A DNA stretch of 64,000 nt from Patescibacteria group bacterium. GTDB taxonomy: Bacteria > Patescibacteriota > Patescibacteriia > UBA9934. Shown piece after piece: positions 5,954 through 44,265 of this stretch; the first letter of the stretch is position 1, and each line of letters opens with the position of its first letter. The notes beneath the pieces were generated by a model. That model saw only the letters and a list, made by a program, of their open reading frames with translations, was not told the DNA's origin and did no database searches. The DNA is taken from assembly GCA_041660165.1 (NCBI GenBank), contig JBAZWW010000006.1:10337-74336 (forward strand), written 5' to 3'. A program made the translations under genes and the position numbers.

Positions 5954-6547
5954 TTAGCCTTGTTTCTGTTCCGCAATAATCTCAAGCGCCTTCTTTTTCG
6001 CAATAGTCCATGTAGCGAGCGACCAGCCATTCGTGATTCTTCCCTCAGCAATCATTTGGTCGATTTCTGCGGGGGTGAACCAAAAGAGCTCAAAATCTTC
6101 CGTTTCGTCTTTAGCTATCGAACATGGAGAGAGATCATAGGCCACAAAAACAGAAGCAACCTGATCAGTGAGCCCGGAACTTGCTTCAAAAAACCCGGCC
6201 CGGTCAACATGCTTTGCTGAGAACTGCGTCTCCTCTGCAAACTCAGCTGAGGCAGTTTCCTCCTCGGTCTTCCCTGATTGCTTGCCACCAGCGGGAAATT
6301 CTAATGATTCCTTATCAATCACCGGGCGGAACTGGTTCACCATGGCAATTTTACCCTCAGCATTCACTCCCACAATCATTGATCCGCCGGCATCATGCGC
6401 GTAGTAGTACTTCACTTCTTTGCCGGAAGAAAGAAGGTGCCTGCTCAGGCGATATTCCCAATAAGGATTTCGAGCGAGTAATTCATCGCTCACTTTTTCC
6501 CATTTCTTGAGAGGCATATTACAACTTACCCCGAATCTCTTCAGCAA
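5954..6547 (-). CDS. NUDIX hydrolase (ADP-ribose / nucleotide-sugar pyrophosphatase-like)
   Basis: 197 aa; degenerate Nudix box GGKQSGKTEEETASAEFAEETQF (GX5EX7..EExG-like). Confidence 0.55.
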   Translation of the reverse strand: MLKRFGVSCNMPLKKWEKVSDELLARNPYWEYRLSRHLLSSGKEVKYYYAHDAGGSMIVGVNAEGKIAMVNQFRPVIDKESLEFPAGGKQSGKTEEETASAEFAEETQFSAKHVDRAGFFEASSGLTDQVASVFVAYDLSPCSIAKDETEDFELFWFTPAEIDQMIAEGRITNGWSLATWTIAKKKALEIIAEQKQG

Positions 6548-14233: not shown

Positions 14234-14243
14234 AATCCGGTTC

Positions 14244-14267
14244 CCATCCCGACGTGAGGAGGGATAG
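14244..14267. repeat. Family-1 hairpin element (CCATCCC-GACGTGAGGA-GGGATAG), 11 nt upstream of the GT4 start on the minus strand
   Basis: Identical 25-mer also present at 45131-45155. Confidence 0.6.
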
Positions 14268-14285
14268 AATTGGATGCATCCTTGC

Positions 14286-15396: not shown

Positions 15397-15412
15397 AAAA
15401 TCTTCTTATCTC

Positions 15413-15482
15413 CACCCTGAACGACAGTGAAGGGTCCGACCCTCACCAGTGAAAGTCGGATCCTTCGCATAGCTCAGGATGG
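15413..15482. repeat. Family-2 ~70-nt imperfect palindromic intergenic element
   Basis: CCACCCTGAAC...GAAGGGTCCGAC-CCTCACCAGTGAAA-GTCGGATCCTTC...GCTCAGGATGG; related copies at 31248-31319 and 32175-32247. Confidence 0.65.
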
Positions 15483-15495
15483 TAACCATTCAGAG

Positions 15496-20473: not shown

Positions 20474-23122
20474 TCAGAACGACGCCCGGCTAAACCAAAG
20501 GTGTGTCAGACTGCCAGAACCTGTCCAGCGTCCGGTGCAGATGATCAGATCAAGCGCCGTCTGCGCCGACCCCGTCGTAAACCCACCCACCACGCGCACC
20601 TCGCTGTTGGCAGACGGAGCCTCTTGCTCATTCCACAGCGTGCTGGAGGGAGTCCAGCTGGCTCCGTTGTACACCTGTACGAAGTTTCCTACAGCGGAAC
20701 TCGCATTACGGACCACGAAGCTGAATCCGTACTTGGTGCTCGGTAGAACCACCAGGCTCTTGAGCGAGACGCACTCCGTGGCGCCGAAACCTGGAGAAGC
20801 CGGCACAAGCACCCCGAGCGCGTTTACGGAGAGGCCGGTCAAACCGCCCGCCACCGTACCCGCATAGGGAGCAACCGTGAGCGCGGTGGATGTGTACCCG
20901 GAAGCCGAGTAATGCACGACCCAGTTACCCCTGGTTCCACCCGGGAAGTAGGACGACTCTGCCCCGAACTGGCTCTCAATGAGGTTTGGTCCAGTGTAGG
21001 TCACTGGACCAGCATCGGAGGTTGCACCCCCGTACGCCAAACCATCATCCATCGCCTTGCCGTTGCAATCGTCATCCCACACACTCGCTGGCCGCTCAGC
21101 CACGCCGGGGTTCACCGCCGCCAGACTGTCGTTACAGTCGCCGGCCACCGCCACGTATCCCGCTGGTTGTGAACAGGCGGTGACGTTCTTGGTTGCGTCC
21201 CCATACGTATCGGTATCAAGGTCTGCGTAGTACGCAGTAGCACCGACGCCATCGTCAATCAGCACATTGCAGTTGTCATCCTTCCCGTTGCACGTCTCTA
21301 CGGCCCCGGGGTGAATGAGATTCGTGGTGTCATCGCAGTCAGAACTATTGGTCGAGTATCCCGTTGGCACGGAGCACGCGTCCTTTGTCCCGAGCGGGGT
21401 ACCGTACGTGTCATTGTCGTTGTCCACGTAGTACGTGATCTTCACGCCTTCGTCAGTTCCACCTGCGCAGTTGTCGTCTTTCCCGTTACAAACTTCCGTC
21501 TGCCCGGGATACACGAACTTGTCGCTGTCAAGGCAATCCGTAGGATCAAGCACATACCCCGCGGGAGGCGAACACTGGACGGCTGACTTGGTGATGTCAC
21601 CGTAGCCGTCCTTGTCACTGTCCGCATAGTACGTATTACTGCCAATGGCCCCGTTGTCCACGGCGCCATCACAGTTATCATCCTTCCCGTTGCAGACTTC
21701 CGTGCCCGTGGGACTCACGCTCACATTGGCGTCATCGCAGTCCGTGGAAGTGGACACATACCCGGCTGGCGCCAGGCACGCTTTGGTCGAGGTAGAACCC
21801 CCGTACCCATCTTTGTCCGCATCCTGGTACCACGTTTTCGCATCTACCGCACCAATGTCAGTCGTGCCATCGCAGTTGTCGTCCTTGCCGTTGCAAGTTT
21901 CAACCGCGCCCGGAAACACGAGTTTGTCCGTATCATTGCAGTCGCTCTCATTGGCCACGTACCCAGCCGGCGGAGTGCAGGCTTCCGTAGAAGTCCCGCC
22001 CCCGAACCCGTCCGTATCTGCGTCCTTGTAGAACGTCAGCAACACGCCTTCGTCAATGACGCTGTTACAATCGTCATCCCGATCGTTGCAGACCTCGCTG
22101 GCACCAGGGTTCACCGTGGCCCGCGCGTCGTCGCAATCCCCGCTCTGAAGCACGTAGCCCGCAGGCGCGGAACATGCCTCCTTGGCCGGGCCAGATCCGT
22201 AACCGTCCTGATCCGCGTCTTGGTAATAGGCGGTCAAGACGCCATTATCGATTCCACCGACGCAGTCATTGTCCGTCCCGTCGCACACCTCTGTGGCGCC
22301 GGGATTCACTGCAAAGTTGGAATCATCGCATTCCTGGCAAGCAAAGTAGCCATCGCCGTCATTGTCCGTAGCCCCGTACGAGCCATCGCAATTCAGATCT
22401 ACGAAGTCCGTACAGGTCTCAACCGCACCGGGATGAACAGTGTAATCACCGTCATCGCAGTCCTCGTTGTTCGTTGCATAACCGTCCGGCAACTTACAGG
22501 CCATGACCGTCCTGTCGGCCCGTCCGTAGCCGTCTTTGTCCGAGTCCTTGTAGAACTCGTCCTGGCCGGCCACGCCCGTGTCCGCGTCATCCGTCAGCTC
22601 ATCACAGTCGTCGTCAAACCCGTTACAGGTTTCAACGGCGTCCGGATGAATGGCTGAATTGTCATCATTGCAGTCAACGTCGGCGCTGTAACCGTCCTCG
22701 TCTGCATCGATGATTTCGATCTCGCCATCTTTCCCGTCACAGTCCTCGTCAATCCCGTTTCCGGGAACCTCGACCGCGTCAGGATTGATATCCGGGTCCG
22801 CGTCATCGCAATCGCTCGCGTTCTGCACGAGTCCGGCCATGACGAGCGCGTCGCAACCCTCAAAATACGATGCGCTGTCGCCGAAACCATCGCCGTCTAC
22901 GTCCGAATACCAGAGCAAGCGCGGAACCGCTTCGTCTGGCTGTCCGTCACAATCCTCATCCACCCCGTTGCACGGAATCTCTTCCGCGCCCGGGTTGATG
23001 TCCGCGTTGTCGTCATTGCAATCCTCATAGCTCCAGAAGCCGTCGCCGTCCGCGTCCACCAGCGGGTGGCGCCCAACACAGCCGGCAAGCAACAGAAGAA
23101 CTGAACACGTAAAAGAACGCAT
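20474..23122 (-). CDS. Secreted/lipoprotein-like protein with ~10 tandem MopE-type putative metal-binding repeats
   Basis: 882 aa; signal peptide with LLLLAGC; ~70-aa repeat YxDxDxDGYG...AC..P.GYV....DC.D......PG..E.CNG.DDNCDG..D.G, iterated; non-repetitive ~280-aa C-terminal domain. Confidence 0.75.
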   Translation of the reverse strand: MRSFTCSVLLLLAGCVGRHPLVDADGDGFWSYEDCNDDNADINPGAEEIPCNGVDEDCDGQPDEAVPRLLWYSDVDGDGFGDSASYFEGCDALVMAGLVQNASDCDDADPDINPDAVEVPGNGIDEDCDGKDGEIEIIDADEDGYSADVDCNDDNSAIHPDAVETCNGFDDDCDELTDDADTGVAGQDEFYKDSDKDGYGRADRTVMACKLPDGYATNNEDCDDGDYTVHPGAVETCTDFVDLNCDGSYGATDNDGDGYFACQECDDSNFAVNPGATEVCDGTDNDCVGGIDNGVLTAYYQDADQDGYGSGPAKEACSAPAGYVLQSGDCDDARATVNPGASEVCNDRDDDCNSVIDEGVLLTFYKDADTDGFGGGTSTEACTPPAGYVANESDCNDTDKLVFPGAVETCNGKDDNCDGTTDIGAVDAKTWYQDADKDGYGGSTSTKACLAPAGYVSTSTDCDDANVSVSPTGTEVCNGKDDNCDGAVDNGAIGSNTYYADSDKDGYGDITKSAVQCSPPAGYVLDPTDCLDSDKFVYPGQTEVCNGKDDNCAGGTDEGVKITYYVDNDNDTYGTPLGTKDACSVPTGYSTNSSDCDDTTNLIHPGAVETCNGKDDNCNVLIDDGVGATAYYADLDTDTYGDATKNVTACSQPAGYVAVAGDCNDSLAAVNPGVAERPASVWDDDCNGKAMDDGLAYGGATSDAGPVTYTGPNLIESQFGAESSYFPGGTRGNWVVHYSASGYTSTALTVAPYAGTVAGGLTGLSVNALGVLVPASPGFGATECVSLKSLVVLPSTKYGFSFVVRNASSAVGNFVQVYNGASWTPSSTLWNEQEAPSANSEVRVVGGFTTGSAQTALDLIICTGRWTGSGSLTHLWFSRASF

Positions 23123-27803: not shown

Positions 27804-27829
27804 TAGACCCTGACGCTAGGAAGGGTCTA
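27804..27829. repeat. Family-1 hairpin element (TAGACCCT-GACGCTAGGA-AGGGTCTA) containing the anti-sigma gene stop codon in its loop
   Basis: 8-bp stem; loop variant GACGCTAGGA; followed by GAGGTG as at 2103. Confidence 0.6.
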
Positions 27830-28961
27830 GAGGTGGTGCTATTGGAACTTCTTTTTTGACGGCTTCCTCAGTTGCTTTCGCGGCGGCTGCGGTGGCGGCA
27901 TCTTTAGCGGCCTGGACGTCATCAAGCGTGGTTGTAATCATGAACTCTATGTCGGCAAGTTTTCCTTCAAGGGCTAAGAGCTCGCTGTCCACTCCTTGTA
28001 ATGTGTCAAAGGCTGATCTGTATCCTCCGGCTGCAAAGCCGTTCATGGCTTCCGGAATTTGCAGGCGGGTTTGTTTAATGATGAGGGTCATGTGCCGGAG
28101 ATCATCCGCCGTTGGCACTCCACCAATGCCTTTGAAGACCACGTTGCCACTGATGGTGTCGGTAATTGTGGCGATTCTATGCTCGTCAAATGTTTGTCTT
28201 GCCTCAATTGCGCCAAGTTCTTTCTTAAACATTTCTTTCAATTCTTGGCCTGAGCGCTGGGTGGCTGAAGCTTCATGGACGTCTACCGCAACGGTAGTGG
28301 CGGCTTCCTGTGTATCTTTTGCGGCCTGTTTGGCTACCAGCGCTTCCTGCCCCGCCTCTGGCTGTTCACTAGCGGCCGCGTTCTGATCAATCACGGTCTT
28401 CATGGCATCAATTTTGTTCTGCACATCTGTAACAACCGCAAGGGCTTGGCCAGATTCAACCGTGCCCTTCAAACTCTTGAGATCGGCTGAAGCCTGAGAA
28501 AGTTCAGTAGCGTATTCATGCATTGCAGTCTTGGCCAATTCGAGGTGGGCGACGCGAGCGTCGCCCGTACTACGCAGTTGCGTTGCTTCGTCCAATCGGC
28601 GCTCAGCGAATTCCGTGTGGAGGACTGCCCTTCTATCAAGTGAGGCAAGTCTTAGCTGGGCTTGTTCAGTGATTCGCTTCACCGAGTAGAGCGTATCGCC
28701 AGGAAGGCTGTTTGAGGCCGCGCTCACGGTAGAAAGACTGCCGGAGAAAAGGACAAGGGCGGAGACACCAATGGTGACGGGCTTTGAGATGAAAGAACCA
28801 AGATACCAAGAGACATATGAAGGAGCGGTCTTCTGAACTGGAGCATCAACAGAAATACGGGCCATGAGGCGGGACTTCATTGCCTCATGCGCAGAAAACG
28901 AAAGCGCCCCGGCCTTGGGGTCATTTTTCAAACTGCTTAATTTAGCGAAGAGGTTTGACAC
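27816..28961 (-). CDS. Putative anti-sigma factor (single-pass membrane, DUF5667-like extracytoplasmic helical domain)
   Basis: 381 aa; cytoplasmic N-terminus, one TM (VTIGVSALVLFSGSLSTVSAA), helical/coiled-coil C-terminal domain; 25-nt overlap with the upstream ECF sigma gene. Confidence 0.55.
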   Translation of the reverse strand: MSNLFAKLSSLKNDPKAGALSFSAHEAMKSRLMARISVDAPVQKTAPSYVSWYLGSFISKPVTIGVSALVLFSGSLSTVSAASNSLPGDTLYSVKRITEQAQLRLASLDRRAVLHTEFAERRLDEATQLRSTGDARVAHLELAKTAMHEYATELSQASADLKSLKGTVESGQALAVVTDVQNKIDAMKTVIDQNAAASEQPEAGQEALVAKQAAKDTQEAATTVAVDVHEASATQRSGQELKEMFKKELGAIEARQTFDEHRIATITDTISGNVVFKGIGGVPTADDLRHMTLIIKQTRLQIPEAMNGFAAGGYRSAFDTLQGVDSELLALEGKLADIEFMITTTLDDVQAAKDAATAAAAKATEEAVKKEVPIAPPLDPS

Positions 28962-31136: not shown

Positions 31137-31247
31137 TCTTAGCAGAAAAATGGGCTTTTGTCAAGCCAAAAACCACATTTCTTCGCTATTGTCAGCGGCA
31201 AGTATACCCTGATTCAAATGCTTGAAATTCCCATATCCCTCTCTTCT

Positions 31248-31319
31248 CCATCCTGAGCGAGAGCGAAGGATCCGCCCCTCACACGTGAAAGTCGGACCCT
31301 TCGCATAGCTCAGGGTGGG
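31248..31319. repeat. Family-2 ~72-nt palindromic intergenic element
   Basis: CCATCCTGAGCGAGAGCGAAGGATCCG-CCCCTCACACGTGAAAGT-CGGACCCTTCGCATAGCTCAGGGTGGG. Confidence 0.65.
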
Positions 31320-31332
31320 AATAATACTCAAG

Positions 31333-32174: not shown

Positions 32175-32247
32175 CCCATCCCGAGCCATGCGAGGGATCC
32201 GACTCTCACATGTGAGGGGCGGATCCTTCGCTCTCGCTCAGGATGGG
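32175..32247. repeat. Family-2 ~73-nt palindromic element, inverted relative to the 31248 copy
   Basis: The reverse complement is ~90% identical to the 31248-31319 element; lies 8 nt upstream of the C39-like gene start. Confidence 0.65.
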
Positions 32248-34585: not shown

Positions 34586-34694
34586 AGCCTCCTTGTTATT
34601 AAACGGGGACAAAGAAAATTTCGTCCCTGAAGAATGTTGATTACCGCGAAAGTATATCATAGCTCTTAGCGCTCATTATACACGCCCTCTGCTC

Positions 34695-34718
34695 CCACCC
34701 CGACGTGAGGAGGGGTAG
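34695..34718. repeat. Family-1 hairpin element (ACCCC-GACGTGAGGA-GGGGT)
   Basis: ~110 nt upstream of the small membrane protein start; followed by a perfect TATAAT. Confidence 0.55.
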
Positions 34719-34741
34719 TATTTCTAGGGCTCGAGGTTTGT

Positions 34742-35572
34742 TTAGGCGATACTCTTTTTTGTTGGCTGTTTCAAAAAGTTTTGCTTTGACACAATCGGCC
34801 GGCCAAGTTTTTTCTCAAGTTGTTTTCTTGCACCGCCGGCAATTGTGCCACCGGCTCTGGCGTCGGCTTTGAGTTTCTTTACGCCTTTCGAATTCTCGTT
34901 GCGATGGATCTCCGTAGTCGAACGCTCACCGAGCATGTTAAAGATGAGCTCGAAATCATCCATATGATCGCGCAGATTCTCGCGTTTCAAGCCCTTGAGC
35001 TTTTTGTACTCAGTTGGCGTAACCCCAAAAGTGGCTTTAGAGATTTCTGCCGTCAAAATCTCATAATCGCCACTTTCTTTGGCCCCGCGATTTTTCCATT
35101 CGTCCGTAAGCTCTTCGCGGATGACGATTCCGCGCATGCGCTTCTCAATCCAGTCTTCGTTGTATCCCTTCAGCTTGTAGAGTATGCGGGTACGCTTTGT
35201 TGCGAGTTCGGGATTCTCGATCTCCTGCACACGCTCAAATCCAACCTTGGCAAGCCAACGCTTGAAGGGTTCTGCTTTAGGAGAAGGAACAGATTGAATT
35301 ATGCGAAACATGCCCTCAATATCAGCACAATCCGTCTCTCGCATCTTCCCGTCCGGAGCTTCCAATTTCAACTGGTGACATTTTGTCACCACTTCACTTC
35401 CCTCTTCTCGTAGCCGTTGAGATAACTTATTCCAATATTTTCTCGCCACATAATCATCCTCCTGGTCAATGAGCGCCCGAATAACATCCACCACCGAAAA
35501 CCACCACTCACCATTGACAAGTGCCTTGCGTATCTCCTTACCCTTGAACAATGCAATGTGGTTGTTCGTCAT
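34742..35572 (-). CDS. DinD-like DNA-damage-inducible protein (N-terminal Bro-N domain)
   Basis: 276 aa; Bro-N signature LFKGKEIRKALVNGEWWFSVVDVIRAL; C-terminal half parallels E. coli DinD (GLKRENLRDHMDDFELIFNMLGERSTTEI...). Confidence 0.65.
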   Translation of the reverse strand: MTNNHIALFKGKEIRKALVNGEWWFSVVDVIRALIDQEDDYVARKYWNKLSQRLREEGSEVVTKCHQLKLEAPDGKMRETDCADIEGMFRIIQSVPSPKAEPFKRWLAKVGFERVQEIENPELATKRTRILYKLKGYNEDWIEKRMRGIVIREELTDEWKNRGAKESGDYEILTAEISKATFGVTPTEYKKLKGLKRENLRDHMDDFELIFNMLGERSTTEIHRNENSKGVKKLKADARAGGTIAGGARKQLEKKLGRPIVSKQNFLKQPTKKSIA

Positions 35573-35581
35573 ATGTTCGTA

Positions 35582-38377: not shown

Positions 38378-39367
38378 TTGTCTCGTTCCTTCCCACAGGA
38401 GTTTCCCATGGTCCCCAAGCGAGCAGACCCTGCGCGCCTGGCCAGGCCGCGCGCGAAAACCAAGACCCAACAGAACCGCGAGCTCTTTGAAGAGTTGGCT
38501 AAAGCCGACAAAGCCACGGCGGTCAGGCTACGGAATGAAATAGCTACTTTCAATCTGCCGCTCGTGACCACCCTGGCGAAGCAACAGCTTTGGCGCGCCG
38601 AGATGTCCAATATGACCCTGGAAGATCTCATCCAGGAGGGCTGTTTTGGCCTCATGACAGCCATAGACAAATTCGACCTCAGCCGGAACAAAGCGTTTAG
38701 CACCCACGCGGGCTGGTGGATCAGGCAGGTCATTTGCCGAAAGCTCGACGAAAATAGCGGTCAGCATGGCGGACGCATGCCCACCACCAAAGCCCAATTG
38801 ATCGCCACGGTTAGGCGAGAGAAAACAAAGTTGGAACAGCAACTTGGCCGAATGCCCACGGAACAGGAGATCGTTAATCGCTTCGTGGATCCCGCTGATG
38901 CGGGCCAAAGGCGGTACAACACCGCGCAAAAGAACGTTCGCGGAGCACTCCGCCTGGCGGAACAACGCATCTTTGCTCTAGACATGGCAAATGATGAGGG
39001 CGAATTCCCTGGCCACAGCCTGATCCCGAGCGAGATAATATCGCCCGAAACGATTGCTACCGCCAGATCGGAACTAGCTGAACTCAATGATCTGCTGGCC
39101 ACCATAAAAAGCCTCCTGGAAACACATGGCCACCGTGACGCGGATATCATGCGTCTCCGTCTAGGGATGGACGACGAAGAGATCCCTCCCCTTGAGTCCC
39201 TGGGAGAAAAATACGGCGTGAGTCGCGAAAGAATCCGGCAAGTGGAGCTGAAGGTCAATCGGCACATTAACCGCGTCATTCGCCCAAGAACAAGCTCATC
39301 GGCCGCTGAGCTGGTGCGTCGCCGTAGAAAAATCCTTGACCTTCTCAAGGGCAGTTACGTCTTTTAG
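38378..39367 (+). CDS. RNA polymerase sigma factor, sigma-70 family (compact RpoD/group-3-like)
   Basis: 329 aa; region 2 (QEGCFGLMTAIDKFDLSRNKAFSTHAGWWIRQ), regions 3 and 4 (LESLGEKYGVSRERIRQVELKVNRHINRV). Confidence 0.75.
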   Translation: MSRSFPQEFPMVPKRADPARLARPRAKTKTQQNRELFEELAKADKATAVRLRNEIATFNLPLVTTLAKQQLWRAEMSNMTLEDLIQEGCFGLMTAIDKFDLSRNKAFSTHAGWWIRQVICRKLDENSGQHGGRMPTTKAQLIATVRREKTKLEQQLGRMPTEQEIVNRFVDPADAGQRRYNTAQKNVRGALRLAEQRIFALDMANDEGEFPGHSLIPSEIISPETIATARSELAELNDLLATIKSLLETHGHRDADIMRLRLGMDDEEIPPLESLGEKYGVSRERIRQVELKVNRHINRVIRPRTSSSAAELVRRRRKILDLLKGSYVF

Positions 39368-39429
39368 CGCCCCGCCTCTCACCGGTCGATACCGGAACGG
39401 AGAGATGCCCGGGGCGTTTGTTGTTTTAT
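39366..39429. repeat. 64-bp direct repeat copy 1 (embedded intrinsic terminator: long GC hairpin + TTTGTTGTTTT)
   Basis: AGCGCCCCGCCTCTCACCGGTCGATACCGGAACGGAGAGATGCCCGGGGCGTTTGTTGTTTTAT; identical copy at 40468-40531. Confidence 0.85.
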
Positions 39430-39503
39430 TGACTTTTTCTCTTATTTTTGTTATTATTTTTGGTTACTCGTTCTGTAAAAAACCCTTTTGTTCGGAGGAT
39501 GCT

Positions 39504-40445
39504 GTGAACAATAAATCCACGCTCAACGCCTGGCGGAACCCTACGGCCGTGCAGATGATCGCGGAAACCTGCCCGCACGACCAGGGAGACCTGATCAGCC
39601 TGCGGCAGCTCATCATGCTCGCCGTGGAAATCGAAGAGTGGTCGCGTTTTGAACGCCTGCTTTTCGCCGTTGCTGACCTGGCCGTGAAGCGCGCCGGCAG
39701 CAACGACTGGCGCGCAAAAAGCGTCCTCGACATGGGCACGGCATGGGGCATCGCAAAAACGAATGACGGATTCGCGCTGAAGCTCTCAGATGAGATCAGC
39801 CTGAAACTCATGCCCGAAATCATGCCCAAGGAATACCGGGACTCCCCAGCCCTGCGGGCCATCCTGCAGTTCCCGAACGGGAAGGCCGGCAAAAAGTTCA
39901 AAGACGCCGTGACCGAGCGCAAGAAACTGAACCGCTCCGTGTTCGGCAACGTCATCATGGGAGGCGTTCAGTTCTCTCCTGAACTCTACGTTCAAGGTAC
40001 AGATGAATACGACATGATCTTCAGCCGGGAAGGCAGGGAACGGCTCGGCGGGCGCGCAACCGTAGTCAACCAGAACGTCTGGAATCGCGGTTCGTCAATC
40101 TTCATGATCGAACCGCTCCCCGGCGAAGCGCCAATCGTCTTCTACACGAACGGAAACGCCACCGGCCTGCTCGGCCTTCCCGAACCAAGCGAAGGAGTGA
40201 AACTCGTGCACTCCGACACGAGCGTGTTCGCCTCCGTGGGCCCGTTCTCGCTCGCCCTGCAGATCGATGACCGGCCTCAGCGATTCGCGCATCAGCGTCG
40301 GCGCGACCTGATCGCAGTCTTCGAGGACATGACGTTGCCCGTCGTTCCTACACGGCATGAGGACGAACTCGCAGGACTCGAAATGAGCTACGAGGATCTT
40401 CAGCCGAATCCGGATATTCGGGAACCGTCCGAAGACGAATACTAG
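39504..40445 (+). CDS. Hypothetical protein (no recognisable domain; acidic C-terminus), bracketed by the duplicated terminator
   Basis: GTG start 7 nt after a GGAGG RBS (the ATG of the longer track ORF lies inside the terminator); ~313 aa. Confidence 0.5.
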   Translation: MNNKSTLNAWRNPTAVQMIAETCPHDQGDLISLRQLIMLAVEIEEWSRFERLLFAVADLAVKRAGSNDWRAKSVLDMGTAWGIAKTNDGFALKLSDEISLKLMPEIMPKEYRDSPALRAILQFPNGKAGKKFKDAVTERKKLNRSVFGNVIMGGVQFSPELYVQGTDEYDMIFSREGRERLGGRATVVNQNVWNRGSSIFMIEPLPGEAPIVFYTNGNATGLLGLPEPSEGVKLVHSDTSVFASVGPFSLALQIDDRPQRFAHQRRRDLIAVFEDMTLPVVPTRHEDELAGLEMSYEDLQPNPDIREPSEDEY

Positions 40446-40467
40446 CGCGAAAAAATACACGCGCCTG

Positions 40468-40531
40468 AGCGCCCCGCCTCTCACCGGTCGATACCGGAAC
40501 GGAGAGATGCCCGGGGCGTTTGTTGTTTTAT
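40468..40531. repeat. 64-bp direct repeat copy 2 (terminator), shared convergently with hicA
   Basis: Identical to 39366-39429; ends at the hicA stop codon. Confidence 0.85.
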
Positions 40532-40758
40532 AACAGCTTTATAAACTCCTCACGGCTCAAACCTGCTTGGACCATAATTGATGCAACCACATCTCCGGGT
40601 AAATCAAACTTTGTATGAAAAGGAATCGTTACTCGAAGGGCGGATTTTGAAGAATGGCGAAGTTGGACATGGCTTCCCTTCTGATGATGGATGACGAACC
40701 CGGCGCGGAGCAGGGCTTGCAATACTTTTTTCGGCTTCAAGGACGGCAGCTTGCTCAT
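40528..40758 (-). CDS. hicA: HicA-family mRNA interferase toxin
   Basis: From the internal Met: MSKLPSLKPKKVLQALLRAGFVIHHQKGSHVQLRH... (YcfA/HicA fold with the GSH motif). The N-terminal 47 aa of the track ORF are probably not translated. Confidence 0.7.
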   Translation of the reverse strand: MSKLPSLKPKKVLQALLRAGFVIHHQKGSHVQLRHSSKSALRVTIPFHTKFDLPGDVVASIMVQAGLSREEFIKLL

Positions 40759-40762
40759 ATCA

Positions 40763-41011
40763 CTAGACTGCAACAAGCATCTCTTCATGAATGAACGAGC
40801 GAGACGGGTGGAGCGTTTGCTTATCTTTACGTAAACCCTCAAGATGGCACGCAATCGCCTCATGAGCCATGTCACGAGCCTCTTCAAACGTTCGACCAAA
40901 AGTCACTACTCCTGGCAACGAGGGAGCCGTTACCTGATAACCCCCGCGCACTTTTTCATAAAGCACGGTCACCGCAAATTCTTCTGTGGTTGTAACCGGT
41001 TTAGACTTCAT
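40763..41011 (-). CDS. hicB: HicB-family antitoxin (UPF0150)
   Basis: 82 aa; YQVTAPSLPGVVTFGRTFEEARDMAHEAIACHLEGL matches the HicB RNase-H-like fold; 4-nt gap to hicA. Confidence 0.7.
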   Translation of the reverse strand: MKSKPVTTTEEFAVTVLYEKVRGGYQVTAPSLPGVVTFGRTFEEARDMAHEAIACHLEGLRKDKQTLHPSRSFIHEEMLVAV

Positions 41012-41048: not shown

Positions 41049-41078
41049 TTTGACCGTTCTCTGTTTCTCGTGTATACT
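41049..41078 (+). promoter_or_regulatory. Sigma-70-like promoter TTGACC-18-TATACT upstream of the DEAD-box helicase gene
   Basis: Followed by a ~100-nt structured 5' UTR. Confidence 0.45.
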
Positions 41079-41178
41079 CCTCTCTTAGATATTTGTGCCA
41101 TTTCAGGCACCTCGAACTCCGTTTTTTTGCAGATTTTGCAGCTAAAACATAGGGGTCCGGGTATCATCTAATACCCCT

Positions 41179-42733: not shown

Positions 42734-42901
42734 TTATCCCCACCTCGATAACGAATCGCTTAAAACCATGTTGCAATAGAAGGGTCAGAAATAGCAAACT
42801 CCCCATTTAGTTGGCGGAGTTTTTGTTTGTTTTATTCGATAAAAGGAGGCCTATGTAGAAAACTATCCGTGAGCTATACTTTATTCAGTAATACCTTTCG
42901 T
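42734..42901. repeat. ~165-bp direct repeat copy 1 (promoter/leader region of a small-protein gene)
   Basis: ~90% identical to 43723-43889 (TTATCCCCACCTCG...ACCATGTTGCAATAGAAGGGTCAGAAATA...TTTTGTTTGTTTTATTCG.TAAAAGGAGGCCTATGTA...). Confidence 0.8.
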
Positions 42902-43108
42902 ATGGATAAACAGGAATTTACACAGATACTCACCCAGGCTCTCTCCGACCAATCTCGCGATCTGCGCGAGTACACTGATCAGCGCGTCTCTGCTTCGGAA
43001 AGACGAATCCTTGATGGCGTGGGCGAAATGTTCGATGGCCTGAGTCCGCAGTTCAACAATCACGAGCGCCGAATTCTAAAACTTGAGAAACTCGTCCACG
43101 CCACATAA
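42902..43108 (+). CDS. Small conserved hypothetical protein, paralog 1 (68 aa)
   Basis: C-terminal 38 aa nearly identical to the paralog at 43890-44153 (DQSRDLREYTD...GVGEMFDGLSPQFNNHERRILKLEKLVHA). Confidence 0.6.
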   Translation: MDKQEFTQILTQALSDQSRDLREYTDQRVSASERRILDGVGEMFDGLSPQFNNHERRILKLEKLVHAT

Positions 43109-43119
43109 TGCCCCACAAA

Positions 43120-43150
43120 AATCCCGCCGTGAGGCGGGGTTTTGTTATTT
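43120..43150. terminator. Bidirectional intrinsic terminator (CCCGCCGTGAGGCGGGG + TTTTGTTATTT)
   Basis: Between the convergent small gene and lipoprotein gene. Confidence 0.7.
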
Positions 43151-43675
43151 CGCCTTGAACGAAGCGAAGATTTGATCAATGTCCTTCATCTGCTCCACAT
43201 ACTTGTCCTGCCGACCGTCATAAATGTAGGACCAAGGACCGGTTTTCGCCACGACGCCTCCGTAGAAAGCGCTCGTCGCATTACTGCCGAGGAGTTTCTC
43301 TGTTGGGTACTTGGCCATCTTTGACTGGTCTTTCAAGTCGATCGACATGATGGCAAACAAGTACAACAAGTCCTCGCCCTTTGGTTCGTAATAAAATGCG
43401 CGGGATTTTCCAGGCACGTCATAGGCCAAAAATTCTTCCTTTGGCCCATAGCCGTCAAAGTCCTCAAAGTTCTTAATCCCCATCCAACGTTCCGGAAATG
43501 AAAACGAATAGCGAGGATCCTCCGTAAACTCGAAGGTCAAAACCTTGCTCGGTGGTGTCTCAATGACAACGTCAGGAACAGTGTAGTTCGAAGCCGGCGC
43601 TGGAATGGTCGAGGACTGAGCGCACCCGACGCCGAGGAGCATGAGAAGCGCGATCGACAAAAGTGATTTTTGCAT
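43145..43675 (-). CDS. Putative lipoprotein / secreted protein
   Basis: From the internal Met: MQKSLLSIALLMLLGVGCAQSS (signal peptide with Cys). The longer track ORF runs into the repeat. Confidence 0.55.
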   Translation of the reverse strand: MQKSLLSIALLMLLGVGCAQSSTIPAPASNYTVPDVVIETPPSKVLTFEFTEDPRYSFSFPERWMGIKNFEDFDGYGPKEEFLAYDVPGKSRAFYYEPKGEDLLYLFAIMSIDLKDQSKMAKYPTEKLLGSNATSAFYGGVVAKTGPWSYIYDGRQDKYVEQMKDIDQIFASFKAK

Positions 43676-43722
43676 ATGGGGAGATGGTAGCACAAAAATA
43701 GCCAGCGGACGGAGAAGTAAAC

Positions 43723-43889
43723 TTATCCCCACCTCGCCCAGCAAACACCTTAAACCATGTTGCAATAGAAGGGTCAGAAATATCAAACTCCCCATTTACT
43801 TGGCGGGGTTTTTGTTTGTTTTATTCGGTAAAAGGAGGCCTATGTAAGAAATCGTCAGTGCGTTATACTTTATTCAATAAGCATCTCAT
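43723..43889. repeat. ~165-bp direct repeat copy 2
   Basis: See copy 1. Confidence 0.8.
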
Positions 43890-44153
43890 ATGAATGAACA
43901 GATAATTCAGAAATTACTAACCCAGGCGCTTACGACCAATAACAAGGTCCTTCTTGGCCAAGTCAAGGAATATACCAATCAGGCCTTGGCCGATCAATCC
44001 CGAGATCTCCGAGAATATACCGATATGGAACTTAAAAGAACAAGGCAAGAAATCCTCGAAGGCGTAGGCGAAATGTTTGATGGCCTGAGCCCGCAGTTCA
44101 ATAACCACGAACGGAGAATTCTCAAACTAGAAAAACTTGTTCATGCATCGTAA
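43890..44153 (+). CDS. Small conserved hypothetical protein, paralog 2 (87 aa)
   Basis: Same family as 42902-43108 with a 20-aa insertion; followed by the terminator CTCCGCTCCACATGGGCGGAG + TTTTAG. Confidence 0.6.
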   Translation: MNEQIIQKLLTQALTTNNKVLLGQVKEYTNQALADQSRDLREYTDMELKRTRQEILEGVGEMFDGLSPQFNNHERRILKLEKLVHAS

Positions 44154-44210: not shown

Positions 44211-44265
44211 TTGCGTTCGGTTTCCGTTCGGTTATGATAAGGGTAGACAAGAACAGATCGCGAAC
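44211..44265 (+). promoter_or_regulatory. lexA promoter (TTGCGT-16-TATGAT) overlapped by two direct-repeat boxes, GTTC-N7-GTTC (44215-44229) and GAAC-N7-GAAC (44251-44265): candidate LexA operators
   Basis: Motifs read from the sequence. GTTC-N7-GTTC is the alphaproteobacterial-type LexA box (established knowledge); its relevance here is inferred. Confidence 0.4.

What the first reader, a model, noticed from the sequence alone, without database searches (positions are those of the whole stretch)
38378..40531. Unknown gene bracketed by a perfectly duplicated 64-bp terminator, downstream of a sigma-70-family gene and abutting hicAB
The identical 64-mer AGCGCCCCGCC...GTTTGTTGTTTTAT occurs at 39366-39429 and 40468-40531. 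It carries a long hairpin plus a T-tract. Between the copies sits a single ~313-aa ORF with no recognisable domain. It has a GTG start with a GGAGG RBS and an acidic C-terminus, and it is noticeably GC-rich. A perfect direct duplication of a terminator flanking one gene is the footprint expected from a recent cassette insertion or tandem duplication. The second copy also serves as the convergent terminator for hicA, so the toxin-antitoxin pair and the unknown gene form one accessory patch next to a sigma factor. The ORF could be a sigma-factor partner or a horizontally acquired defence or effector gene.
Basis: partly seen in the sequence, partly recalled or inferred. Interest (0 to 1): 0.7.

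Follow-up and report, generated by a model that had tools for sequence, protein, structure and literature searches.

The report
Strain-variable orphan gene between duplicated terminators
In an uncultured Patescibacteria genome, one self-contained gene of unknown function sits between two identical copies of a 64-base terminator; a sister strain has one copy and no gene, and the protein belongs to a rare, oddly GC-rich family that elsewhere lies next to DNA-recombination genes.

Summary
The 64-mer occurs exactly twice (39366-39429, 40468-40531), folds into a long hairpin followed by a T-tract, and brackets one real 313-aa gene with its own promoter, RBS and GTG start.

A related metagenome contig (L013; flanking MetK 99% and DEAD helicase 97% aa identical) has MetK-sigma-R-DEAD with a single R, no ORF313 and no hicAB. 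So ORF313 plus one R copy, and hicAB, are strain-variable. R is not a dispersed repeat. Whether this was a gain here or a loss in L013 is not resolved, because R is so constrained that identical copies do not prove recency.

The protein matches no Pfam, NCBIfam, PHROG or PADLOC family and no solved or viral fold. It has 13 distant relatives, two of them labelled Patescibacteria. None of the nine loci examined has a sigma factor next to the gene. Three have recombination genes as immediate neighbours (RecO/RuvX, DprA, RecG/RadA), and RecA or LexA-DinB lie nearby in three more.

Most members carry a disordered acidic tail ending in an aromatic residue. Most are also the most GC3-rich gene of their locus, which is unexplained. 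The sigma-partner and defence readings are not supported. A recombination or repair accessory role is the best, still weak, guess.

The parts
38408..39367 (+). Sigma-70-family gene (319 aa). Its TAG stop overlaps the first two bases of R copy 1.
   Evidence: Pfam Sigma70_r2, r3 and r4. Its positional counterpart in L013 is only 45% aa identical. The nearest database relatives are at most 35% identical.
39366..39429 (+). R copy 1: a 64-nt intrinsic-terminator-like hairpin plus T-tract, at the end of the sigma gene.
   Evidence: The same element sits at the same position after the sigma gene in L013.
39429..39457 (+). Promoter-like site TTGACT-17-TATTAT with a TG extended -10. The -35 hexamer starts on the last base of R copy 1.
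   Evidence: Homologues have the same promoter type, TTGACA-N17-TAtatT with an upstream TG.
39494..39498 (+). GGAGG ribosome-binding site, 5 nt before the GTG start.
   Evidence: Read directly from the sequence.
39504..40445 (+). ORF313 (P0001). It has an N-terminal ferredoxin-like domain and a conserved C-terminal domain with invariant R184, P204, E208, H236 and D268. Residues 284-313 form a disordered acidic tail ending in DEY.
   Evidence: There are 13 homologues at E <= 1e-3, aligned. The AF2 model has pLDDT 81 and pTM 0.75, with the tail below pLDDT 50. No known family or fold matches. It has the highest GC3 in the window.
40446..40467 (+). 22-nt spacer after the stop codon, containing a small GCGCG/CGCGC hairpin.
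   Evidence: Sequence and fold.
40468..40531 (+). R copy 2, identical to copy 1. It would terminate ORF313, and its last 4 nt overlap the hicA stop codon and last codon.
40528..40758 (-). hicA toxin gene (76 aa).
   Evidence: Pfam HicA_toxin, E = 2.6e-15. Absent from L013. GC3 is 0.49.
40763..41011 (-). hicB antitoxin gene (82 aa).
   Evidence: Pfam HicB_lk_antitox, E = 2.4e-9. Absent from L013. GC3 is 0.46.
41050..41178 (+). DEAD-box helicase promoter (TTGACC-17-TATACT) and leader. This is the right-hand conserved anchor of the variable patch.
   Evidence: There is 1 mismatch in 108 nt against L013, while the coding part is 90% identical.

Best explanation
R is the intrinsic terminator of the sigma-70-family gene and is present in single copy at that position in a sister lineage. 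In this genome a minimal stand-alone transcription unit lies immediately 3' of R, and R is repeated at the unit's own 3' end. That unit consists of an extended -10 sigma-70-type promoter, a 46-nt leader, GGAGG, a GTG start and the 313-aa ORF. As a result, sigma and ORF313 each end in the same terminator, and the convergent hicBA operon abuts the second copy.

Shown:
- The [ORF313 + one R] unit of 1102 bp, and hicAB, are strain-variable.
- They lie between conserved anchors (MetK, R, and the DEAD-box helicase leader).

Inferred:
- The unit was gained, or can be lost, by RecA-type recombination across the 64-bp repeat. Recombination between the two R copies would delete exactly ORF313 and leave the arrangement seen in L013. 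The reverse reaction would be Campbell-type integration of a circle carrying R.
- I favour gain in this lineage (about 0.6 against 0.4 for loss in L013), because the gene family sits in a different genomic context in every genome examined.

The protein:
- Shown: it is a real, folded member of a rare family seen so far in Patescibacteria-type genomes. The fold matches nothing known. The C-terminal domain carries conserved charged residues. The C-terminal tail is disordered and acidic and ends in an aromatic residue.
- Inferred, at about 0.3 confidence: it is an accessory factor of recombinational DNA repair or natural transformation. It may dock onto a partner protein through an SSB-like tail. 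This rests on its neighbours in other genomes and on the tail.
For: Repeat and anatomy.

The arrangement is real. It appears in three assemblies, including one at k=141, and the k=31 contig breaks exactly at R.

Sister lineage L013:
- MetK is 342/346 aa identical and DEAD is 96.6% aa identical.
- There is a single R (0 substitutions, 1 indel), then 55 nt, then the DEAD promoter.
- There is no ORF313 and no hicAB.

R is not dispersed. No integrase or transposase was called within +/-10 kb. There are no terminal inverted repeats.

Family and fold: 13 homologues at 25-36% identity and a confident AF2 model with a disordered tail.

Context of homologues (window context):
- RecO | gene | RuvX (L009).
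- Pth | gene | DprA (L012).
- RecG | gene | RadA (L016).
- RecA three genes away (L010).
- LexA and DinB within 3-5 genes (L008 and the window).
- 4-5 of 16 immediate flanking genes are recombination genes, P about 3e-5 to 7e-3. This uses an assumed 2-5% background, which I did not measure.
- At locus level, 3 of 8 loci have such a neighbour, P about 0.006-0.04.

Tail: the last 30 aa have net charge -7 to -13 in 9 of the 11 members that are not obviously truncated. The tail ends in Y or F in 11 of 14 members.

Each homologue has its own strong promoter, so these are stand-alone units like the one here.
Against: - Polarity is unresolved. There is no outgroup. R is so conserved between lineages that two identical copies are expected with P about 0.3-0.4 even if the duplication is old. 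A weak 8-nt match (p about 0.03) between the L013 spacer and the hicA 3' end could be a deletion scar.
- Recombination across R does not explain how the first R-gene-R arrangement arose.
- In this window the immediate neighbours of ORF313 are a sigma gene and hicA, not recombination genes.
- Two other homologue loci (L005, L004) show no repair neighbour. One (L018) lies beside a mobile-element module with ImmR/ImmA, a rolling-circle Rep and a methylase.
- No GTTC-N7-GTTC LexA box lies upstream of ORF313 or any homologue.
- The family's high GC3 is not explained by this account.
Confidence: 0.6

Rival explanations
1. The arrangement is ancient and the polarity is reversed. R-ORF313-R (and hicAB) were ancestral at this locus. 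The sister lineage L013 lost ORF313 cleanly by homologous recombination between the two R copies, and lost hicAB separately.
For: Recombination between the two R copies would leave exactly the single R seen in L013. R is under strong constraint, with 0 substitutions against about 27% divergence at third codon positions. Perfect identity of the two copies therefore does not imply a recent event. There is a weak possible hicA remnant in the L013 spacer (p about 0.03).
Against: Every family member sits in a different context, and the family is extremely sparse: 14 clusters among 1.84 billion representatives. That pattern fits repeated gain better than vertical inheritance at one locus. ORF313 and hicAB are both compositional outliers, in opposite directions.
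Confidence: 0.3
2. ORF313 is a partner of the adjacent sigma factor, such as an anti-sigma factor or a regulon member.
For: It lies directly downstream of the sigma gene on the same strand.
Against: None of the nine homologue loci has a sigma gene beside the family gene. L013 keeps the sigma gene without ORF313. A terminator and a separate housekeeping-type promoter lie between the two genes. No anti-sigma domain was found.
Confidence: 0.04
3. ORF313 is a horizontally acquired defence, anti-defence or effector gene travelling with the hicAB module as one accessory island.
For: It is strain-variable, a compositional outlier, and adjacent to a toxin-antitoxin pair. Both are absent from L013. One homologue lies beside a mobile-element module. 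Other GC-rich orphan genes sit next to homologues in L008 and L010.
Against: There are no PADLOC or PHROG hits and no relatives in phages, plasmids or IMG/VR. hicAB accompanies none of the homologues. The GC3 of hicAB deviates in the opposite direction, which argues for separate origins.
Confidence: 0.12
4. ORF313 is itself a novel nuclease or recombinase that mobilises its own one-gene element and targets terminator hairpins. Class C group II introns and some IS families also target such structures. In this reading the insertion generates long target duplications.
For: - It is a one-gene unit inserted exactly at the 3' edge of a terminator hairpin, with a 64-bp flanking repeat.
- The L010 homologue is also flanked by a 38-nt direct repeat at 89% identity, next to terminators.
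- The family has invariant E, H, D and R residues.
- Genomic context is variable.
Against: - The gene is single-copy in the window and in each locus examined.
- The family is extremely rare, and its members are only 25-36% identical to ORF313. This is unlike an active mobile element.
- There are no terminal inverted repeats.
- Seven of nine homologue loci have no convincing flanking repeat.
- No nuclease or recombinase fold was detected.
Confidence: 0.06
5. The arrangement is an assembly artefact. The 1102-bp unit could be a separate circle, or could come from another strain and have been joined through the shared 64-mer.
For: A 64-bp repeat is ambiguous in a de Bruijn graph when k is below 64, and the k=31 contig breaks there.
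Against: A k=141 MEGAHIT contig and the NCBI MAG contigs (80-82 kb) all carry the identical arrangement. A 141-mer spans R plus both flanks, so both junctions must exist in reads.
Confidence: 0.03

Closest known systems
Indels bounded by direct repeats, or Campbell-type integration and excision (as in repeat-flanked genomic islets and translocatable units)
   Same: A segment is flanked by identical direct repeats and a related genome carries a single repeat copy. Recombination between the repeats would interconvert the two states.
   Different: The repeat is a complete 64-bp intrinsic terminator rather than a tRNA end, IS copy or att core. The bracketed segment is one 1-kb gene, and no recombinase lies within +/-10 kb.
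Integron gene cassettes with attC sites, including CALIN arrays
   Same: A single-ORF unit of about 1 kb is bounded by copies of a 60-nt imperfect-palindrome element. A toxin-antitoxin pair lies next door, as in sedentary chromosomal integrons (my own knowledge).
   Different: R has no RYYYAAC/GTTRRRY core sites at its ends. The unit carries its own promoter. No integron integrase was called nearby. hicAB is not followed by a third R. I did not run a covariance model for attC.
Acidic C-terminal tails ending in an aromatic residue, as in ssDNA-binding proteins (bacterial SSB ...DDDIPF; phage T7 gp2.5 and gp4, both ending in F). This comparison is from my own knowledge.
   Same: The tail is disordered and strongly acidic, with a terminal Y or F. 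Neighbours in other genomes (RecO, RecG, DinB, DprA, RecA) include proteins known to act with SSB.
   Different: No OB fold was detected. There is no sequence similarity to SSB families. Binding to DNA or to partners is untested.
Mobile elements that insert next to terminator hairpins (class C group II introns; IS families that target REP or hairpin structures). This comparison is from my own knowledge.
   Same: The insertion junction lies exactly at the 3' edge of a terminator stem-loop and T-tract.
   Different: There is no reverse transcriptase, ribozyme or transposase. There are no inverted ends. The gene is single-copy.
HicAB type II toxin-antitoxin module
   Same: hicB and hicA are found by Pfam with typical sizes, arranged as a two-gene operon.
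   Different: It is only the neighbour of the feature, not part of the bracketed unit. Its composition suggests a separate origin.

Membership tests
Intrinsic (Rho-independent) terminator | G+C-rich stem-loop directly followed by a U-tract on the transcribed strand | tested here: met
   Hairpin of -27.8 kcal/mol followed by UUUGUUGUUUUAU. The scan flags both copies on the + strand.
Intrinsic (Rho-independent) terminator | Located just 3' of a stop codon, and conserved at the orthologous position | tested here: met
   R1 overlaps the sigma stop codon. R2 starts 22 nt after the ORF313 stop. L013 has R directly after its sigma stop.
Intrinsic (Rho-independent) terminator | Works in both directions, and so terminates hicA on the minus strand | tested here: inconclusive
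   The minus-strand hairpin forms, but it is followed by CUCAGGCGCG. The U6 run lies 12 nt away, inside a second small hairpin. The scan finds no minus-strand terminator there.
Intrinsic (Rho-independent) terminator | Measured termination of transcription | not testable with these tools
   Needs Term-seq, RNA-seq or an in vitro assay.
Integron cassette / attC | R'' (RYYYAAC) and R' (GTTRRRY) core sites at the two ends of the element | tested here: not met
   R starts with AGCGCCCC and ends with GTTGTTTTAT. There is no inverse core-site pair (by reading the sequence). An attC covariance model was not available.
Integron cassette / attC | Integron integrase nearby, or an array of three or more attC sites | tested here: not met
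   Only two copies occur in 64 kb. No integrase was called within +/-10 kb.
IS or transposon | Transposase gene, terminal inverted repeats and a short target duplication | tested here: not met
   The only ORF has no transposase domain. No terminal inverted repeats were found. The flanking repeat is 64 bp.
Integrase-driven integrative element (attL/attR) | Tyrosine or serine recombinase encoded within the bracketed DNA | tested here: not met
   The bracket holds only ORF313, which has no recombinase family or fold match.
SSB-like ssDNA-binding proteins | OB-fold DNA-binding core | tested here: not met
SSB-like ssDNA-binding proteins | Disordered acidic C-terminal tail with a terminal hydrophobic or aromatic residue | tested here: met
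   Residues 284-313 have pLDDT below 50. Net charge is -9 and the protein ends in DEY. The feature is shared by most homologues.
Anti-sigma factor or sigma-factor partner | Conserved co-occurrence with a sigma-factor gene | tested here: not met
   0 of 9 homologue loci have a sigma gene alongside. L013 has the sigma gene without ORF313.
Known anti-phage defence systems (PADLOC) | Match to a defence-system protein model | tested here: not met
   No PADLOC hit for ORF313.
LexA (SOS) regulon of these Patescibacteria | GTTC-N7-GTTC operator upstream of the gene | tested here: not met
   Boxes lie upstream of lexA in the window and in L008. None lies upstream of ORF313 or any homologue.
HicAB toxin-antitoxin (neighbouring genes) | HicA_toxin and HicB-like antitoxin domains in an adjacent gene pair | tested here: met
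   Pfam E = 2.6e-15 and 2.4e-9.

The most novel reading that the evidence does not exclude
ORF313 may represent an undescribed, Patescibacteria-restricted protein of homologous recombination or natural transformation. It would use an SSB-like acidic tail with a terminal aromatic residue to dock onto recombination proteins. Its gene would be a self-contained, GC3-rich unit that relocates between genomes and loci by recombination at terminator-sized homology blocks. The persistently high GC3 in AT-richer hosts might then be a footprint of very frequent recombination (GC-biased gene conversion), or of a shared GC-rich mobile gene pool.
Probability: 0.2. Interest if true: 0.75.

Novelty: new variant of a known kind. 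Interest (0 to 1): 0.5.

Why it matters
The bracket itself is a clear natural example of a 64-bp terminator doubling as a portable homology block. A single gene can be gained or lost precisely through it without any dedicated recombinase, and each transcription unit stays insulated.

The more interesting part is the cargo. It belongs to a very rare protein family with no known fold. So far it is seen in Patescibacteria-type genomes, a group thought to depend heavily on DNA uptake and recombination. The family repeatedly sits next to RecO, DprA, RecG, RadA, RecA or LexA-DinB, and carries an SSB-like tail.

If it is a lineage-specific recombination or transformation factor, it would fill a gap in how these reduced genomes handle incoming DNA. 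The family-wide excess of GC3 over the host genome (up to 0.86 against 0.35) goes against the usual AT bias of transferred genes and is unexplained.

Tried and rejected
- More family members: the 5.8-billion-protein word-indexed search found only the query and P0043. GTDB representative genomes and IMG/VR gave none. One alignment was too divergent to use as a query.
- Close relatives of the sigma factor for synteny comparison: none above 35% identity. The empty-site comparison came instead from searching for R itself.
- SOS regulation: I identified the LexA operator of these genomes (GTTC-N7-GTTC) upstream of lexA. It is absent upstream of ORF313 and its homologues, so I dropped this idea.
- Rfam: nothing in the region or anywhere in the window.
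- Terminal inverted repeats: none.
- A conserved companion gene: the GC-rich orphans next to homologues in L008, L010 and L016 are unrelated to each other and to the window.
- hicA remnant in L013 as a test of polarity: only an 8-nt match, p about 0.03, inconclusive.
- High expression as the cause of high GC3: ribosomal-protein genes in L009 have ordinary GC3 (0.57 +/- 0.03, against 0.82 for the family gene), so I rejected it.
- Literature on Patescibacteria genomic islands gave nothing specific.
Full report
**1. Observation**

- The 64-mer AGCGCCCCGCCTCTCACCGGTCGATACCGGAACGGAGAGATGCCCGGGGCGTTTGTTGTTTTAT is present at 39366-39429 and 40468-40531 at 100% identity. No further copy occurs in the 64-kb window even with 3 mismatches allowed, and none is expected by chance.
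- As RNA it forms a long imperfect hairpin (-27.8 kcal/mol, z = -2.3) followed by UUUGUUGUUUUAU. The terminator scan flags both copies on the + strand only.
- Copy 1 begins inside the TAG stop of a sigma-70-family gene (38408-39367; Pfam regions 2, 3 and 4). Copy 2 begins 22 nt after the stop of the bracketed ORF, and its last bases overlap the stop codon of hicA (40528-40758, minus strand; hicB is at 40763-41011).
- The bracketed ORF (39504-40445, 313 aa) has GGAGG 5 nt before a GTG start. It also has a promoter-like TTGACT-17-TATTAT with a TG extended -10, and the -35 hexamer starts on the last base of copy 1.
- Its GC3 (0.748) is the highest of about 58 ORFs in the window (mean 0.569, sd 0.051). 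GC1 and GC2 are ordinary.

**2. The arrangement is real**

- The window is a Patescibacteria MAG contig (GCA_041666805.1). An independent ENA MEGAHIT k=141 contig is identical across the region. A 141-mer spans R plus both flanks.
- A Logan k=31 contig ends exactly 30 nt into R. That is the signature of a genuine repeat with two left-hand contexts in the reads.

**3.

- Searching JGI metagenomes for the 49-nt core of R returned one contig, L013 (Ga0315281_10108767). It comes from a sister lineage.
- In L013, MetK is 342/346 aa identical. The DEAD-box helicase N-terminus is 96.6% aa identical, with 55 of 62 nucleotide differences at third codon positions.
- The L013 order is MetK - sigma - one copy of R - 55 nt - DEAD promoter. 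ORF313 and hicAB are both absent.
- So [ORF313 + one R] (1102 bp) and hicAB are strain-variable, and R sits at the sigma gene's end in both lineages.
- R is not a dispersed repeat. There was no other JGI hit and no hit to a 29-nt core in 185,579 GTDB representative genomes.

**4. What cannot be concluded**

- *Recency.* R differs between the two lineages by one indel and no substitution, although third codon positions next door differ by about 27%. The DEAD leader is similarly conserved (1 of 108). With that constraint, two identical copies are expected with P about 0.3-0.4 even if the duplication predates the split.
- *Polarity.* Recombination between the two R copies would delete ORF313 and give exactly the L013 state. 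The reverse, integration of a circle carrying R, would give the window state. Without an outgroup the direction is open. An 8-nt match between the L013 spacer and the hicA 3' end is too weak to count as a deletion scar (p about 0.03). I lean towards gain here (about 0.6) because the gene family occupies a different locus in every genome sampled.
- *One event or two.* hicA and hicB have GC3 of 0.49 and 0.46, below the genome mean, while ORF313 lies far above it. The two modules probably have separate histories.
- *Mobility machinery.* No integrase or transposase was called within +/-10 kb and there are no terminal inverted repeats. R lacks attC-type core sites when read by eye. This is therefore not an IS, an integrase-driven island or an integron cassette by their defining features.

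**5. The protein**

- *No known family or fold.* ORF313 matches nothing in Pfam, PHROGs, PADLOC or NCBIfam. It matches no PDB sequence and has no relatives in phage, plasmid or IMG/VR collections.
- *A small family.* An exhaustive HMMER search of 1.84 billion cluster representatives found 13 relatives (E = 5e-17 to 2e-4; 25-36% identity to ORF313). Two carry the label 'Patescibacteria group bacterium'. One locus shows S5 directly followed by L15 with no L30 gene between them, which is a pattern typical of this group (my own knowledge).
- *Conserved residues.* The alignment shows a variable N-terminal half and a conserved C-terminal domain. Motifs include PLxGE, HPDxxVFASVGPFSLAL and RDRIxVFxDxxLPI. 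R184, P204, E208, H236 and D268 are invariant.
- *Tail.* A low-complexity acidic tail ends in Y or F in 11 of 14 members. The last 30 aa have net charge -7 to -13 in 9 of the 11 members that are not obviously truncated.

**6. Context of the family**

I fetched nine homologue loci. None has a sigma factor or hicAB beside the gene.

| Locus | Neighbours of the family gene |
|---|---|
| L009 | RecO and RuvX, immediate |
| L012 | Pth and DprA, immediate (TopA further on) |
| L016 | RecG and RadA, immediate |
| L010 | RecA three genes away |
| L008, and the window itself | LexA - small ORF - DinB, 3-5 genes away |
| L018 | a mobile-element module: ImmR/ImmA, rolling-circle Rep, HTH_17, C5 methylase |
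| L005, L004, L014, L015 | uninformative or too short |

- I assumed that 2-5% of genes are recombination or repair genes (my estimate, not measured). On that basis, 4-5 recombination genes among 16 immediate neighbours has P about 3e-5 to 7e-3. Three of eight loci has P about 0.006-0.04.
- This is suggestive, not proof. The contexts are not syntenic with each other, so shared descent does not explain it.
- Every homologue has its own TTGACA-N17-TAtatT promoter with an upstream TG, so these are stand-alone units.
- The acidic tail with a terminal aromatic residue resembles bacterial SSB and phage T7 gp2.5 and gp4 (my own knowledge). That makes docking onto recombination or replication proteins the most economical hypothesis.
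- There is no OB fold, and no LexA box (GTTC-N7-GTTC, which I found upstream of lexA here and in L008) precedes any family gene.
- I put the recombination or repair accessory reading at about 0.3.

**7. An unexplained family trait**

- In seven of nine loci the family gene has the highest GC3 of the locus, and in the other two the second highest.

| Locus | Family gene GC3 | Other ORFs, mean GC3 |
|---|---|---|
| L012 | 0.86 | 0.35 |
| L009 | 0.82 | 0.57 |
| L010 | 0.78 | 0.41 |
| L005 | 0.67 | 0.37 |
| L016 | 0.92 | 0.63 |
| L008 | 0.75 | 0.49 |

- Only the most divergent member examined, in L018, is near its host's value.
- Ribosomal-protein genes in L009 are not GC3-rich, so high expression is not the cause.
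- Transferred genes are usually AT-richer than their hosts (my own knowledge). A family whose members share only about 30% identity yet stay GC-rich in AT-richer genomes therefore needs another explanation. Candidates are repeated transfer from an unsampled GC-rich pool, GC-biased gene conversion from frequent recombination, or selection on the mRNA.
- In L010 the gene lies in a GC-rich islet after three tRNA genes and is itself flanked by a 38-nt direct repeat at 89% identity. L008 and L010 have other, unrelated GC-rich orphans alongside.

**8. How it most likely works**

- *Shown.* R terminates the sigma transcript by anatomy and by its conservation in position. A complete promoter-to-stop unit follows, and R recurs at its end. 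The unit is present or absent between lineages, with a single R in the empty state.
- *Inferred.* The second R terminates ORF313 and keeps it from reading antisense into hicBA. The 64-bp identity is long enough for RecA-dependent deletion or re-integration, so the gene can be lost or regained precisely without a dedicated recombinase. R, the 5' end of the sigma gene and the DEAD leader act as conserved anchors. Between them, both the sigma allele (45% aa identity between lineages) and the downstream cargo vary.
- *Not explained.* How the first R-gene-R arrangement was created. Template switching at the hairpin during replication is one possibility, but I could not test it.

**9. Verdict**

- The cassette-indel interpretation is supported, except for 'recent'.
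- The sigma-partner and defence ideas are not supported.
- The bracket is a modest variant of a known kind of event.
- The cargo is an uncharacterised Patescibacteria-type protein family with a suggestive recombination link and an odd compositional signature. This is the part worth following up.

Noticed in passing
window 38408-39367 versus L013 837-1736 (minus strand): The sigma-70-family gene is only 45% aa identical between the two lineages, although the flanking MetK (99% aa) and DEAD helicase (97% aa) are nearly the same. Homology resumes about 30 nt into the gene and again at R. This looks like a hypervariable or replaced allele between conserved anchors.
   Followed up: partly
window 41071-41178: The leader and promoter of the DEAD-box helicase gene have 1 mismatch in 108 nt against L013, while third codon positions of the gene differ by about 27%. 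The 5'UTR is strongly constrained and may be regulatory. There is no Rfam match.
   Followed up: partly
window 44215-44229 (+), 44251-44265 (-), 35564-35578 (+); L008 3576-3590: GTTC-N7-GTTC direct repeats, the LexA operator type known from Alphaproteobacteria, occur twice upstream of lexA here and once upstream of lexA in L008. A third copy in the window overlaps the start of a Bro-N-domain gene, next to a Fic gene.
   Followed up: partly
window 42734-42953 and 43723-43940: There is a second 'A-X-A' arrangement 2 kb downstream. Direct repeats of about 220 nt at 82-86% identity contain the starts of two paralogous small coiled-coil ORFs (42827-43108 and 43890-44153). They flank a 216-aa gene on the opposite strand (43145-43795).
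   Followed up: no
L004 ~60-98, L005 ~1345-1380, L009 7944-8000, L012 ~5995-6030, L014 ~615-650, L015 ~55-90: Six homologues of ORF313 share a conserved 5'UTR element directly before the start codon, CGTGCAyCCyGCAyGwGAAGArGGAG. It is a 5-bp hairpin whose CCC loop could pair with the GGG of the RBS, and it is duplicated in tandem in L009. It is absent from the window's gene. It may be a translational operator.
   Followed up: partly
L010 7758-7795 and 9049-9086; L010 6403-6726; L010 6929-7621: The L010 homologue is flanked by a 38-nt direct repeat at 89% identity. It lies in a GC-rich islet just after tRNA-Ala, tRNA-Phe and tRNA-Pro, together with a GC-rich 230-aa orphan carrying an HEMGH motif.
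   Followed up: partly
L010 8939-8958 and L018 ~1895-1920: The 3' flanks of two distant homologues share a CCCCGACACGT...TTCGGGG hairpin followed by a similar AAAGCAG...GGCTGCTTT terminator.
   Followed up: no
window 15404-15485, 31240-31321, 32192-32231; 2079-2112, 27805-27838; 14242-14271, 34693-34722: Three small families of dispersed hairpin repeats (30-82 nt, 80-91% identical) lie in intergenic positions. They are REP-like elements unrelated to R.
   Followed up: no
window 21600-22556, within ORF 20474-23122 (minus strand): A 33-nt motif recurs five times at intervals of about 200 nt inside an 882-aa GC-rich ORF (GC3 0.69, second highest in the window). This suggests a protein of repeated domains.
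   Followed up: no
L008 6246-7511 (minus strand): A 421-aa orphan with GC3 of 0.82 and no Pfam domain lies between DinB and the ORF313 homologue. It is unrelated to the other GC-rich orphans.
   Followed up: partly
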